IMG/VR virus record: IMGVR_UViG_2870479586_000001
Span: 1 to 58,638 of that record
DNA: 58,638 nt
From: a virus
Lineage: Duplodnaviria > Heunggongvirae > Uroviricota > Caudoviricetes
Reading direction: 5' to 3' (one strand)
Of this stretch, positions 6,001 to 9,000 are shown in pieces; within the stretch, counting starts at the first letter, position 1; the number at the start of each line of letters is the position of its first letter. Made by a program: the position numbers.

Positions 6001-9000
6001 CATGCGCCCCTGAAACTCAACATCGTCATCGAACGCACGGGTAATGGCTTTTTTGCTGACCCCGTGGCGTTGCAAATGATCGATGCATAGCGATTCAAAC
6101 AGGTGCTGGGGCAGGCCTTTTTCCATGTCGTCTGCCAGTTCTGCCTCTTTCTCTTCACGGGCGATCTGCTGGTAGTGACGCGCCCAGCTCTGAGCCTCAA
6201 GACGATCCTGAATGTAATAAGCGTTCATGGCTGAACTCCTGAAAATGGCTGTGGAAATATCGCCCGCGAAATGCCAGGCTGATTAGGAAAACAGGAAAGG
6301 GGGTTAGTGATTCAGGCCGTTGCCGCGTCCGTCGAGAAAAACTTCCACGAGCAAGTCACGGGTATAAGTGCGCTCGATGCCGCGATGCAGATAAAGCCGT
6401 CCGCGTAAATTAGCTGATGCAGTCCAGGTACCATCTTTGTGTTTGACCAGCATTCCTGGCATGACCGCACCGCGATTAACGGTCTGCGTTCCGTAATGTT
6501 GATGAACCATAAAAACTCCTGCCCGTAAGCTGGGCTGCTGAACATATAAAGACTTCTGCGCGTATTCAGGCGGTGGATGGCCGCCGGTTGTCATAACTAA
6601 GCCGCCTCGTTGAAGCGACTGAGGTATGAAGTGTTGAGTTGATTTCAGCTGGTCACACCGACGTTCACGCGTCCGCTTCACCCCCTCGCACTCCCCGGAG
6701 CCTGCTGAAATTCAAGCTGCGGATCTAAGCGGTCATCGCAACGGTGAATCAGGTGATTGCCGTATCGTTGTGTTGTTGCGACATGGTGATAATAGCTATT
6801 GCTATTGATGATATCAATACTTATTGCTATTGCTAGATGTGTTTTGATATTAAATGTTTGATAGCAAAAAGAATTAATTTTGTGACTTGCATCGCATAGC
6901 GATAACTGAAGTGAGGTGTGGTGGTTTTTTGAGTGGTGTGTGATGAGGGGAGGGGACAAAAGAAAACCCGGCACGGTGGCCGGGTTAACTTTTATCTTTT
7001 CTACTGGCAGCTGGGAATAATCCCCTGATAACACCAAGAAAAGCAGCGAATACATTAAGAGTAACAGCTGTTGTTACAGCCAAAACTACCTTATCGGAAA
7101 AAACCTTTATCCCAATGATAGAAAACCAGCCTTGAAAGAAAAGAAACAAAGCCCATCCGTAAAGTGATTTTTTTACGACACGGTACGCTTTTTCTGCCAA
7201 GATCTCACGAAGTTGCCTGTTTGACTTGGCATCTGCCGCTTTTTGAGCATTGAGGTCGTCACCTCTGGATATTCTTTCTGTAATTGGCGGCTCATCTTCG
7301 GCACTTGATACTTTCGATGAGCCTACATTTGTGCCACTGGGTATAGATATGCTATCAAACGACTTCATTAGTGAATATGCTTCGCCATATCCTCATGAGA
7401 AATGGGGCCACCATCTGCACTTCCCTTGCTCCATGCTGTACCAGGCGCATGTGTTAAGTTAGACAGTTCAGTACCTGAAAATTTCCCATATACTTCGATG
7501 ATTTTATTGATAAGAGCTTGAGCTTCTTCATCATCTTTTTGAATTGTAGGGGTGATTCTTTTTAATTCGCCATCACACTCTAAGATGACGCTAATCTTTT
7601 CAGTGATTTCGTTTGCGCCATACTTCTTCAACATATGATAAAGCGGTGGAATAACAGGCCCGAATTTCCATCTGGCGAAAAGATCATCAAAAAGCGGTGT
7701 GTTGTCGCGTAACTTTAAATGCCATGATTGAGTATAAAAAAGAAGCTTCTGGAGCTTCATTGGAGTCAGATTCTTTAACTCACCCTTTAAAGCCTTTTCA
7801 ATGAAGGCATTAGCAACCGCTGCAGCTGAGTAAGCCATGTTATGCCCCCTTAACTGTATAAATAACCAGTTGTGTAATGTTTGCATTTTACCTGAAAGGT
7901 AACTGTTAGTACATATTAATAACTTTATGTACATCCGTCACTTATAAAACGATAGGATTTATTGCTGTTTATCCTCATTGGACAGCATATTATTCTGGGG
8001 AGAGGTACTGGAAAGTTGTTTGCTATATATAGTGGTAGAGAGGCATAATTCAATACAACATAAAGTGTCATGGCGAGAGCTTTGACTATCGCCATCATTA
8101 ATATTGTCTATTATTTAGACATGGGATTAACCATGTTTCCTATACGTCTGCGGCATGCTCCCAATAACCTTACCGAAGATGAATACCCGGTTCATCTCGT
8201 CTTTCTCGATCGGGTCCCACGGTGAGTAGCTTTTGTTATCAGAGATAACCAGCAGTTTATCCTTCATCATTTGCAGGCGCTTTACATGGGCGGTGTCGTC
8301 ATATAGAAACGCATAGATGCCATCACCGTCGAAAGATTTAACAGTGATATCAACGAACAGCAGGTCACCTGGTTCGATCGTCCCTGACATGCTGTCACCT
8401 CGCACGTTAATGATGCGGATATTTTCCGCCTTCCTGCCATCGAACATGTGACGAGCATCGTCAAACGAGTACTCAACCGAGCGTAGAACTTCTACAAACT
8501 CACGGTTGATTACACCTGGCCCGGCACTGACTTCTATATCAAGAACGTCAATTTTGAAGTATTTGGAATGGCTGACAGCAGGCTTCCCTGATTGTTGACC
8601 GTCATTTCTCATCGGGCCTATGCCTGATGAGAGCCATTCTGTTCGAACACCCAATGCATTAGCTATTTCAACAATTTTTGTTGAGCCGCGCGCGTTGCCG
8701 CTTGTCAGTCTCCAGATTGTGGGTTGAGCTACGCCAGACGCCTTTGCAAGAGCGCCTTGAGACATTCCAGATTGTTCCATCGCTAGGTTTAAGCGATCAG
8801 CAAGAGTTTCTTTTTTCATAAGTTTTAATTTATACGCTTGCGTATTGATGGTCAAAACACGTTTTGCTATTGCTTGGATTAATACGTATTGCTATTATTC
8901 ATTCATTGCAATACCAATAGGAATTGATAATGACAAATCAAACCATTCAACTCGCAATCAGTATTACAGGTAGTCAAAAACGACTGGCAGATCTATGCGG

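What the first reader, a model, noticed from the sequence alone, without database searches (positions are those of the whole stretch)
6511..6984. Leftward early control region: promoter, shared operator repeats, and no N gene
The 470-bp region between the immunity-operon terminator and the kil-position gene contains a well-spaced minus-strand promoter (TTGATA-17-TATTAT), a 17-bp palindrome and TTGCTATTG repeats that recur in the cI-cro intergenic region. This is consistent with OL/OR sites for one repressor. No N-like ORF with a convincing start lies between this promoter and the recombination genes, so antitermination may be N-independent (RNA-based, HK022-like) or absent.
Basis: partly seen in the sequence, partly recalled or inferred. 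Interest (0 to 1): 0.4.

Follow-up and report, generated by a model that had tools for sequence, protein, structure and literature searches.

The report
Prophage early-left switch without N gene
This is the ordinary leftward repressor-controlled promoter region of a lambda-like E. coli prophage, which really lacks both the lambda N gene and the HK022-type antiterminator RNA, and whose leader carries a conserved but undescribed RNA hairpin next to a short reading-frame start.

Summary
The promoter TTGATA-17-TATTAT (6817..6789, minus strand), the 17-bp palindrome and the TTGCTATTG repeats are all present. TTGCTATTG occurs three times in 58.6 kb, only at OL and OR.

The repeats belong to 16-bp operators of the form AATAGC-N4-GCTATT, three at OL and three at OR. 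Relatives whose CI differs only in its N-terminal helix-turn-helix carry a different 95-nt operator module (AACAAC-N4-GTTGTT) at the same place, with the promoter hexamers in identical positions. The 17-bp palindrome spans a variable spacer and is incidental.

No N gene exists:
- There is no candidate ORF and no boxA.
- tblastn with N-type proteins finds nothing.
- The arginine-rich GTG ORF at 6681 is broken in relatives.

A covariance model of put RNAs recovers HK022 putL, HK022 putR and HK639 putL but finds nothing in the window, so the HK022-like idea is rejected.

pL reads through a roughly 270-nt leader into kil-gam-bet-exo with no terminator predicted by a simple scan. Lambda-type terminators (4403..4381, 3443..3425) lie further downstream, so how they are passed is open.

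The leader holds a covarying hairpin (6620..6600) followed by an invariant short-ORF start (MTTGGHPPP). Many enterobacterial lambdoid prophages share it, and its function is unknown.

The region is an ordinary kind of element with a modest open question.

The parts
6965..6986 (-). Intrinsic terminator hairpin (8-bp stem, 6 G-C pairs) ending the cI-cargo immunity operon, followed by the run TTTTCTTTT at 6964..6956. The hairpin also scores as a terminator on the plus strand.
   Evidence: It is conserved in relatives that carry different cargo genes.
6907..6956 (-). A 50-nt tract with no G that is rich in C (21 C in 40 nt), directly after the terminator. It looks like a Rho-utilisation (rut) site and may act as an insulator.
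   Evidence: It is conserved in relatives of both immunity types.
6891..6903 (.). Palindrome ATCGC-ATA-GCGAT upstream of OL. It is conserved whatever the immunity type. Function unknown.
   Evidence: It is part of the anchor found in 64 of 69 loci.
6860..6875 (-). OL3: an inverted operator copy, AATTCT-TTTT-GCTATC as read on the minus strand.
   Evidence: inverted repeats I3 and I25. It is conserved within type-A modules.
6816..6831 (+). OL2: operator AATACT-TATT-GCTATT, overlapping the pL -35 hexamer.
6791..6806 (+). OL1: the perfect operator AATAGC-TATT-GCTATT, lying in the pL spacer and overlapping the -10 hexamer.
   Evidence: 0 mismatches, unique in the window.
6789..6817 (-). pL promoter: -35 TTGATA (6817..6812), 17-nt spacer, -10 TATTAT (6794..6789). 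The predicted transcription start is about 6784-6782.
   Evidence: The hexamer positions are identical in the type-B module.
6631..6781 (-). Upper leader of 151 nt. It contains no conserved ORF, boxA, put-like RNA or terminator. It is shared by relatives of both immunity types starting from about +1.
6600..6620 (-). Covarying RNA hairpin: stem AGUCGC/GCGGCU, loop UUCAACGAG.
   Evidence: 98.2% of cells paired, compensatory changes in 6 of 6 pairs, 0 of 500 shuffles reach this. G-U pairs fit the minus-strand RNA only.
6569..6594 (-). Invariant stretch ATGACAACCGGCGGCCATCCACCGCC, the start of a short ORF (MTTGGHPPP). In this window the ORF happens to run in frame into kil.
6304..6510 (-). kil, a cell-division inhibitor of 68 aa. 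Its Shine-Dalgarno AGGAG lies at 6520..6516.
   Evidence: phrog_294, E = 1.8e-38. PGAP calls the same 207-bp gene.
8856..8925 (.). OR: three operator copies at 8856-8871, 8881-8896 and 8910-8925, between cI (start 8819, minus strand) and cro (start 8930, plus strand).
4381..4403 (-). First intrinsic terminator predicted by the simple scan on the pL transcript, after exo. It lies in a stretch 97% identical to lambda, at the position I recall for lambda tL3.
3425..3443 (-). Second, canonical intrinsic terminator on the pL transcript, upstream of xis and int.

Best explanation
Window 6511-6984 is the early-left control region of a lambda-like (Perceval/Bievrevirus-type) prophage.

Reading along the minus strand, the cI-cargo operon ends at an intrinsic terminator (6986..6965) followed by a 50-nt G-free tract. 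Three 16-bp operators of the form AATAGC-N4-GCTATT (OL3, OL2, OL1) then overlap the sigma-70 promoter pL. The same operator type occurs three times between cI and cro. The resident CI repressor is inferred to bind both sets through its N-terminal helix-turn-helix and so shut off pL and pR.

On derepression, pL transcribes from about 6783 through a roughly 270-nt leader straight into kil, gam, bet and exo. There is no N gene, no nut site and no put RNA. No intrinsic terminator is predicted on that strand by a simple consensus scan between pL and the end of exo, so these genes appear to need no antitermination (inference).

The lower leader (6630..6540) carries a conserved RNA hairpin and the invariant start of a short ORF. 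I take this to be a cis-acting element of the pL transcript that sets translation or Rho sensitivity of what follows. That role is inferred, not shown.

Genes beyond the lambda-type terminators at 4403..4381 and 3443..3425 (xis, int) would be reached by partial read-through or by a mechanism not yet identified.
For: Identity of the region:
- The window is 97% identical to phage Perceval and similar E. coli phages here.
- kil matches phrog_294, gam matches Pfam Gam, and cI has S24 peptidase plus HTH domains.
- Window 4311-6310 is 97% identical to lambda exo-bet-gam.

Operators:
- TTGCTATTG is confined to OL and OR, and there are 22-nt units with 25-bp spacing in both regions.
- The perfect 16-mer AATAGCTATTGCTATT is unique in the window.
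- Among 69 related loci, the stretch between two conserved anchors is always 95 nt and comes in two types. Within type A the operator cores are conserved and the spacers vary. Type B has AACAAC-N4-GTTGTT at OL and again at OR.
- The CI proteins of the two types are identical from about residue 80 onward and differ only in the helix-turn-helix.

Promoter: both module types place the -35 and -10 hexamers identically.

No N, nut or put.

Terminators on the pL strand: none is predicted between 6782 and 4403 other than weak within-gene matches.

Hairpin and short ORF.

The phage type is functional without N: Perceval is an active, inducible prophage (PMC9928086). The leader is present in 2225 of 5426 complete E. 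coli genomes.
Against: - Nothing here shows repressor binding or the transcription start; both are inferred from sequence.
- The loose operator pattern (up to 3 mismatches) is not more frequent in the window than in shuffles (26 hits against 22.8 expected). Only the clustering of hits and the comparative pattern carry the argument.
- The terminator scan is a simple consensus search and cannot see Rho-dependent terminators. 'No antitermination needed up to exo' could therefore be wrong.
- Lambda-type terminators are retained downstream even though N is missing. This argues that some read-through mechanism exists that I have not found.
- The leader as a whole folds no better than shuffled sequence (z = -0.05).
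Confidence: 0.75

Rival explanations
1. The leader encodes an HK022-type put RNA that modifies RNA polymerase and gives N-independent processive antitermination.
For: There is no N gene. HK639, a phage with a putL-like RNA, shares the conserved block 6609..6563 further downstream.
Against: A covariance model was built from 22 put-like RNAs. It scores HK022 putL at 96.9 bits, HK639 putL at 90.8 and HK022 putR at 47.7. With filters off, its best window hit is 11.5 bits (E = 0.36) at 33454. Nothing is found in 6511-6790 or downstream of cro. Rfam also finds nothing. The block shared with HK639 lies about 1 kb downstream of HK639 putL, after its terminators, so it is not part of put.
Confidence: 0.02
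2. A cryptic N-like protein starts at GTG 6681. Its N-terminus, MKRTRERRCDQLK, resembles an arginine-rich RNA-binding motif and runs in frame into kil.
For: The frame is open from 6681 to the kil stop. There is a GGAG 9 nt upstream of the GTG. The arginine-rich start recalls lambda N residues 1-22 (from memory).
Against: Among 54 distinct relatives, substitutions between 6681 and 6595 fall 6:3:5 on codon positions 1, 2 and 3. Twelve relatives carry CAG to TAG at 6621, 4 have a 5-nt insertion, and 1 has lost the GTG. There is no Pfam or PHROG match outside the kil part. No boxA or boxB partner is present.
Confidence: 0.03
3. The conserved hairpin and short ORF (6630..6540) form a translation-coupled attenuator. 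Ribosomes on the MTTGGHPPP frame, possibly stalling at the proline run, would mask a rut site. That would set how much transcription escapes Rho into kil and the rest of the operon, partly replacing N.
For: - The hairpin shows strong covariation and the ORF start is invariant across Escherichia, Citrobacter, Enterobacter, Klebsiella and Trabulsiella.
- The peptide beyond residue 9, and its length (11-96 aa), are not conserved, as expected for a regulatory short ORF.
- The second conserved box, GCGCAGAAGTCTT, is read in different frames in different phages.
- In phi80 the block lies between tL1A and a terminator annotated as Rho-dependent, tL1B.
- In Rac, kilR is silenced through NusG (title and abstract of PMC5793797 listed; the Rho-dependent mechanism is from memory).
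Against: - There is no Shine-Dalgarno at normal spacing from the AUG; the loop GAG lies 12 nt upstream.
- The C excess over G around the block is only moderate.
- The nucleotides are invariant at synonymous positions, so the constraint need not be translation.
- phi80 has PPT instead of PPP.
- There is no experimental evidence of translation or of Rho action here.
Confidence: 0.25
4. The upper leader (6781..6631) is a new kind of antiterminator RNA unrelated to put.
For: It sits where nutL or putL would sit. It is shared by relatives of both immunity types from about +1, in 41% of complete E. coli genomes. Lambda-type terminators are retained downstream without N.
Against: - 15 of 151 sites carry non-singleton polymorphisms (9.9%), against 14 of 69 third codon positions in kil (20%), so constraint is only modest.
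- It tolerates a 5-nt insertion, and O157-type relatives have replaced its first 33 nt.
- It folds no better than shuffles.
- There is no second copy behind pR.
- No distant homologues are found in 50,697 phage records.
Confidence: 0.07
5. The repeats are chance features of A+T-rich intergenic DNA and not operators.
For: The loose pattern is not over-represented in the window as a whole, and promoter-like hits are not above chance.
Against: The exact 9-mer is confined to the two control regions. The spacing is the same in both. Within type A the operator cores are conserved while the spacers vary, and the half-site switches with the repressor's helix-turn-helix at both OL and OR.
Confidence: 0.03

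Closest known systems
Lambda OL/pL and OR (tripartite operators bound by the CI repressor)
   Same: - The region follows the terminator of the cI-accessory operon, as in lambda.
- There are three partially palindromic sites overlapping a sigma-70 promoter that drives the early-left operon.
- The same site type is repeated three times between cI and cro.
- CI has an N-terminal HTH and a C-terminal S24 peptidase domain.
- The exo-bet-gam genes downstream are 97% lambda-like.
   Different: - The operator is a 16-mer with 6-4-6 geometry (AATAGC-N4-GCTATT) and 25-bp spacing, not lambda's 17-mers.
- Two copies are direct and one is inverted.
- The first gene is kil, not N. There is no nutL, cIII, ral or sieB.
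- cro and cII are of the YdaS/YdaT type, as in Rac.
HK022 / HK639 put RNA antitermination
   Same: These are lambdoid phages without an N-type antiterminator. HK639 shares the hairpin and short-ORF block downstream of its terminators.
   Different: There is no put-like RNA anywhere in the window (covariance-model test with positive controls). In HK022 and HK639, putL lies directly behind pL.
phi80 early-left region (pL, boxA-containing leader, 'N', tL1A, tL1B)
   Same: The block CAUACC-hairpin-AUGACAACCGGCGGCCAUCCACCG is shared. A kil homologue lies downstream.
   Different: phi80 has about 400 nt of leader with an rrn-like boxA, a 98-aa 'N' ORF and an intrinsic terminator before the block. 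The window has only 151 nt of unrelated leader and no terminator there.
Rac prophage kilR leader (sRNA KilS; silencing of kilR through NusG, and Rho from memory)
   Same: A kil-family gene heads the early-left genes. It is preceded by a long untranslated leader in a YdaS/YdaT-type immunity region without N.
   Different: There is no sequence similarity between the leaders. The Rac leader ends in an intrinsic terminator that yields KilS; the window's leader has none.

Membership tests
Lambdoid CI-controlled OL/pL operator-promoter | A sigma-70 promoter that faces the early-left genes and lies just beyond the end of the immunity operon | tested here: met
   TTGATA-17-TATTAT at 6817..6789. The hexamer positions are the same in a non-homologous module of relatives. 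The terminator lies at 6986..6965.
Lambdoid CI-controlled OL/pL operator-promoter | Multiple partially palindromic sites that overlap the promoter and recur between cI and cro | tested here: met
   Three copies at OL and three at OR.
Lambdoid CI-controlled OL/pL operator-promoter | Operator sequence specific to the repressor's DNA-binding domain | tested here: met
   The half-site switches from AATAGC to AACAAC at both OL and OR in relatives whose CI differs only in the helix-turn-helix.
Lambdoid CI-controlled OL/pL operator-promoter | Physical binding of the repressor to the sites and repression of the promoter | not testable with these tools
   Needs EMSA or footprinting and reporter assays.
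Lambda-type N/nut antitermination | An N protein (arginine-rich motif) encoded as the first gene behind pL | tested here: not met
   No conserved ORF lies between 6782 and kil. There are no family hits. tblastn with lambda N, phi80 N and HK022 Nun gives no hit with E below 0.3.
Lambda-type N/nut antitermination | boxA plus boxB nut sites in the pL and pR transcripts | tested here: not met
   No boxA-like match lies in 6511-6790 (minus strand) or between cro and the next gene. No candidate boxB was found by eye, but this was not searched exhaustively.
HK022-type put RNA | A two-stem RNA of about 70 nt with the conserved put sequence downstream of pL (and pR) | tested here: not met
   Model R1 scores the known put RNAs at 47.7-96.9 bits and the window at 11.5 bits or less, with no hit in the leaders.
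Leader-peptide / Rho-dependent attenuator | A short ORF with a conserved start and peptide, next to a conserved RNA structure, upstream of the regulated genes | tested here: inconclusive
   The ORF start is invariant and the hairpin covaries. There is no normal Shine-Dalgarno, and the conservation is at nucleotide level.
Leader-peptide / Rho-dependent attenuator | Rho-dependent termination that responds to translation of the short ORF | not testable with these tools
   Needs Rho inhibition, start-codon mutants and ribosome profiling.

The most novel reading that the evidence does not exclude
The hairpin plus invariant short-ORF start (window 6630..6540) may be an undescribed cis-regulatory RNA of lambdoid early-left operons. 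The surrounding leader is present in about 41% of complete E. coli genomes, and the block itself occurs in prophages of at least five further enterobacterial genera. It sits behind tL1 in N-type (phi80) and put-type (HK639) phages, and directly behind pL here. If it is a translation- or stalling-controlled gate on Rho-dependent termination, it would explain how this very common phage lineage expresses its early-left genes without N or put.
Probability: 0.2. Interest if true: 0.6.

Novelty: new member of a known kind. Interest (0 to 1): 0.33.

Why it matters
The region itself is a textbook type of switch. Its operators can now be named with confidence from comparative data alone: a natural 'helix-swap' pair of repressors with matching operator swaps. 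That is useful for annotating a prophage type found in about two fifths of complete E. coli genomes.

The more interesting point is negative. This lineage keeps lambda's recombination genes and their downstream terminators, yet it has neither N/nut nor put, and members such as Perceval are inducible and produce virions. How delayed-early genes (xis, int) are reached is therefore open.

The conserved hairpin and short-ORF block gives a concrete element to test.

Tried and rejected
1. An Rfam scan of 5500-10500 at E up to 10 found only chance-level hits, and none in the leader.
2. Put-like RNA was rejected by a covariance model with positive controls.
3. boxA of the lambda or rrn type was sought in the leaders; there are no matches there and none above chance overall.
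4. The N-like peptide from GTG 6681 is rejected, because the frame is broken by a stop or frameshift in many relatives and shows no codon-position bias.
5. A 96-aa Kil starting at ATG 6594 is not a conserved feature. In relatives the short ORF ends early or runs in another frame, and PGAP calls the 68-aa Kil.
6. The leaderless 11-aa ORF at the transcription start is rejected, because its ATG is absent from type-B modules.
7. Folding the whole leader gave z = -0.05, so there is no unusual stability.
8. The second hairpin GGCGG/CCGCC (6586..6570) is not supported. It is broken in phi80 and Citrobacter L216 and shows no compensating change.
9. A second copy of the block behind pR was sought and none exists.
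10. An ops/RfaH-like reading of GGCGGCTTAG is rejected, because that arm of the hairpin changes freely in other phages (the ops consensus is from memory).
11. Homology of the leader to the Rac kilR leader and its sRNA KilS was checked by eye; none was seen.
12. King et al. 2011 (put-like RNAs) and Rotman et al. 2012 (phi80 genome) could not be read.
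Full report
**What the window is**

The region belongs to a lambda-like prophage. Window 6300-7000 is 96-97% identical to Escherichia phages Perceval, 4A7, Lambda_4C10 and others. In Perceval the surrounding genes are annotated int, xis, exo, bet, gam, kil, a transmembrane protein, CI, a cro-position gene (annotated hypothetical protein), CII and O.

The gene assignments in the window are as follows:
- 5932-6228 (minus strand) is Gam (Pfam PF06064, E = 6e-64).
- 6304-6510 (minus) is Kil (phrog_294, E = 2e-38).
- 8127-8819 (minus) is a CI-type repressor with an HTH and an S24 peptidase domain.
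- 8930-9157 (plus) is a YdaS-type Cro.
- 9182-9727 (plus) is a YdaT-type CII.
- 7368-7934 (minus) carries a SocA/Panacea domain.

Window 4311-6310 is 97% identical to lambda 31194-33193, which covers orf60a, exo, bet and gam. So 6511-6984 lies where lambda has OL/pL, nutL, N and the genes down to kil.

**The observation**

- Promoter: -35 TTGATA at 6817..6812, 17-nt spacer, -10 TATTAT at 6794..6789. It matches 10 of 12 positions and is the best match in 6200-9300.
- Palindrome: TATTGAT-GAT-ATCAATA at 6803-6819.
- Repeats: TTGCTATTG occurs three times in the 58.6-kb window on both strands, at 6799, 6824 and 8864.

In addition, 6783-6831 and 8848-8896 form a 49-nt direct repeat of 76% identity. 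Units of 22 nt recur 25 bp apart in both regions, each with a third, inverted copy.

**The repeats are operators**

I collected 69 related loci that encode the same Kil.
- In 64 of them, two conserved anchors flank a stretch that is always 95 nt long. The anchors are GCGATGCAAGTCACAAAAT upstream and TCGCAACAACACAACG downstream.
- This stretch comes in only two types.
- Type A, the window's type, holds the cores CAATAGCAATAAGTATTGAT, CAATAGCAATAGCTATTAT and AATTCTTTTTGCTATCAAA (minus-strand reading). These are conserved, while the few bases between them vary freely.
- Read as a 16-mer, the site is AATAGC-N4-GCTATT. OL1 (6791-6806) matches it perfectly and is unique in the window. OL2 (6816-6831) and the OR copy at 8881-8896 have 2 mismatches. 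The OR copies at 8856-8871 and 8910-8925 have 3.
- Type B has AACAAC-N4-GTTGTT instead, and the same half-site recurs between cI and cro of those phages.
- The CI proteins of a type-A and a type-B phage are identical from about residue 80 to the end and differ only in the N-terminal helix-turn-helix: SQGALAKASGVAQPTIWRL against TQKALGDLVGVSQAAIQKI.

An operator half-site that changes with the recognition domain, at both OL and OR, inside otherwise conserved DNA, is about as good as comparative evidence for an operator assignment gets. Binding itself is still inferred.

Both module types place their promoter hexamers identically, with a 17-nt spacer and the -10 ending 7 nt before the conserved leader. 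This supports the promoter call and puts the start at about 6784-6782, right at the module boundary.

It is degraded in same-immunity relatives, so it is not a unit of function.

**Upstream of OL**

The hairpin at 6986..6965 with its T-run ends the cI-cargo operon. It is followed by 50 nt without a single G at 6956..6907 and by a 13-bp palindrome at 6891-6903. All of these are conserved in relatives of both immunity types and with different cargo genes. In Perceval lysogens, CI and the adjacent transmembrane gene are among the genes expressed above prophage background (PMC9928086). That fits an immunity operon ending here.

**No N**

Between the predicted start and gam, the minus strand offers only three ORFs:
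- An 11-codon frame at the very 5' end. It is absent from type-B modules.
- The kil frame.
- An overlapping out-of-frame ORF.

The kil frame is open upstream to ATG 6594 and GTG 6681. The GTG version begins MKRTRERRCDQLK, which looks like an arginine-rich motif. I tested it on 54 distinct relatives.
- Between 6681 and 6595, substitutions fall 6:3:5 on codon positions 1, 2 and 3.
- 12 sequences have a TAG at 6621, 4 have a 5-nt insertion, and 1 has lost the GTG.
- In kil proper, by contrast, 19 of 21 variable sites are third positions. The loci were selected for identical Kil, so that contrast partly reflects selection of the sample.

The extension is therefore not a gene. Further negative results:
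- No Pfam or PHROG family matches anything but Kil.
- tblastn with lambda N, phi80 N, HK022 Nun and the N-position ORFs of HK639, HK225 and KO-TP1 gives nothing better than E = 0.3 anywhere in the window.
- No lambda-type or rrn-type boxA lies in the pL leader or in the 24 nt between cro and the next gene.

**No put**

I took HK022 putL and putR from the genome record, using the published numbering of the putL RNA (PMC9378689). I collected put-like sequences from viral contigs with a pattern search, aligned 22 distinct ones and built a covariance model.

With filters off, the model gave these scores:

| Target | Score |
|---|---|
| HK022 putL | 96.9 bits |
| HK639 putL-like RNA | 90.8 bits |
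| HK022 putR | 47.7 bits |
| Best hit in the window (at 33454, E = 0.36) | 11.5 bits |

Nothing was found in either early leader. Rfam finds nothing there either. The HK022-like reading is rejected.

**What the leader contains**

The leader is very common: 2225 of 5426 complete E. coli genomes carry it at 95% identity or more, and most matches start at window 6781, that is at about +1.

The upper part (6781..6631):
- It varies at about half the rate of synonymous sites in kil: 15 of 151 sites carry non-singleton polymorphisms, against 14 of 69 third positions.
- It tolerates an insertion, and O157-type relatives have replaced its first 33 nt.
- The whole leader folds no better than shuffles.

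The lower part (6630..6540) is different.
- It is the only piece shared with distant phages: phi80, HK225, HK639, Klebsiella KO-TP1, Enterobacter ENT1 and two Salmonella phages.
- A degenerate back-translated search for MT[TI]GGHPP in species-representative genomes found it in Citrobacter, Enterobacter (about a dozen species), Scandinavium, Huaxiibacter and Trabulsiella.
- In 22 of 23 of these the 23 nucleotides are identical, although six positions of the search pattern were free.
- Just upstream lies a 6-bp hairpin (window 6620..6600) whose stem sequence differs between lineages while pairing is kept. 98.2% of cells pair, against 62.7% in shuffles. All six pairs show changes on both sides. 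No shuffle out of 500 reaches the observed values, and slid controls pair at 25-54%.
- The frequent G-U pairs fit only the minus-strand RNA, which is the pL transcript.
- The loop keeps UU at its 5' end and GAG at its 3' end.
- Beyond codon 9 the short ORF is not conserved in sequence, length (11-96 aa) or frame relative to a second conserved box, GCGCAGAAGTCTT. In this window it happens to run into kil in frame. In E. coli 2013C-3264 it does not.
- In phi80, HK225, KO-TP1 and HK639 the block follows an intrinsic terminator that ends an N-type or put-type leader. The old phi80 record places it at the start of the 'tL1' region.
- The window has no such terminator, and only one copy of the block.

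I conclude that this is a real RNA element of early-left transcripts. What it does is not known. A translation-coupled gate on Rho-dependent termination is the reading I favour among the speculative ones. Two precedents bear on it: NusG-linked (and, from memory, Rho-dependent) silencing of kilR in Rac (listing of PMC5793797), and the Rho-dependent tL1B annotated in phi80.

**Is antitermination needed?**

- On the pL strand, the first convincing intrinsic terminator is at 4403..4381. It lies just after exo, in the lambda-identical stretch, where I recall lambda tL3 to be.
- A canonical second terminator follows at 3443..3425, before xis and int.
- kil, gam, bet and exo can therefore be transcribed without any antiterminator.
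- On the right, only one weak terminator-like site (13635-13660) precedes Q at 15762-16451.
- Perceval, which has the same arrangement, is inducible and forms particles.

Either read-through of the two left terminators is sufficient, or there is a mechanism I could not see. Sequence alone cannot decide this.

**Verdict**

This is an ordinary lambdoid OL/pL region, now with well-supported operator assignments. It really has neither N nor put. The residual interest lies in the conserved hairpin and short-ORF element, and in how this very common lineage passes lambda-type terminators.

Noticed in passing
window 6907-6956 (minus strand): A 50-nt tract with no G and 21 C in 40 nt lies directly after the immunity-operon terminator. 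It is conserved in relatives of both immunity types. It looks like a Rho-utilisation site and could be a back-up terminator or insulator in front of OL.
   Followed up: partly
window 6891-6903: The palindrome ATCGC-ATA-GCGAT upstream of OL3 is conserved whatever the immunity type or cargo genes. No function is assigned.
   Followed up: no
window about 6685: The window has one more G in the G-run (GAGGGGGTG) than any of 53 other distinct relatives. It lies in non-coding leader, so it is probably harmless, or a sequencing or homopolymer variant.
   Followed up: partly
window 6985-7934; L131, L132, L133: The slot between cI and the terminator carries different cargo in different relatives. Here it is a SocA/Panacea-domain protein plus a small membrane protein. 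Elsewhere it is ImmA/IrrE plus DUF4411, a SIR2-family protein, or others. It looks like a defence or moron hotspot equivalent to lambda rexAB.
   Followed up: partly
window 9146-9162: The hairpin GCCGC-CTAAACT-GCGGC overlaps the cro stop codon. It closely resembles the phi80 tL1A hairpin AGCCGC-CTAACCA-GCGGCT but lacks a U-run.
   Followed up: no
L001 (phi80) about 1070-1090; L004 (KO-TP1) about 3170-3190; L010 (HK225) about 1305-1320; L008 (HK639) 1270-1320: The pL leaders of phi80, HK225 and KO-TP1 carry an rrn-like boxA, TGCTTTTTAACAA. HK639 shares their first 45 nt or so and then switches to a putL-like RNA. This shows module exchange between nut-type and put-type leaders.
   Followed up: no
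window 8856-8925: The OR layout differs from lambda. One operator abuts the -35 of the candidate pRM (8855..8827). One lies in the spacer and -10 of a candidate pR (TTGCTT-17-TATTAT, 8870-8898). One lies downstream of the start, over the cro ribosome-binding site.
   Followed up: no
L269 (E. coli K-12 Rac) 2406-2503: The kilR leader of Rac encodes the annotated sRNA KilS, which ends in an intrinsic terminator. This is a functional parallel (a structured leader before kil) without sequence similarity to the window.
   Followed up: partly
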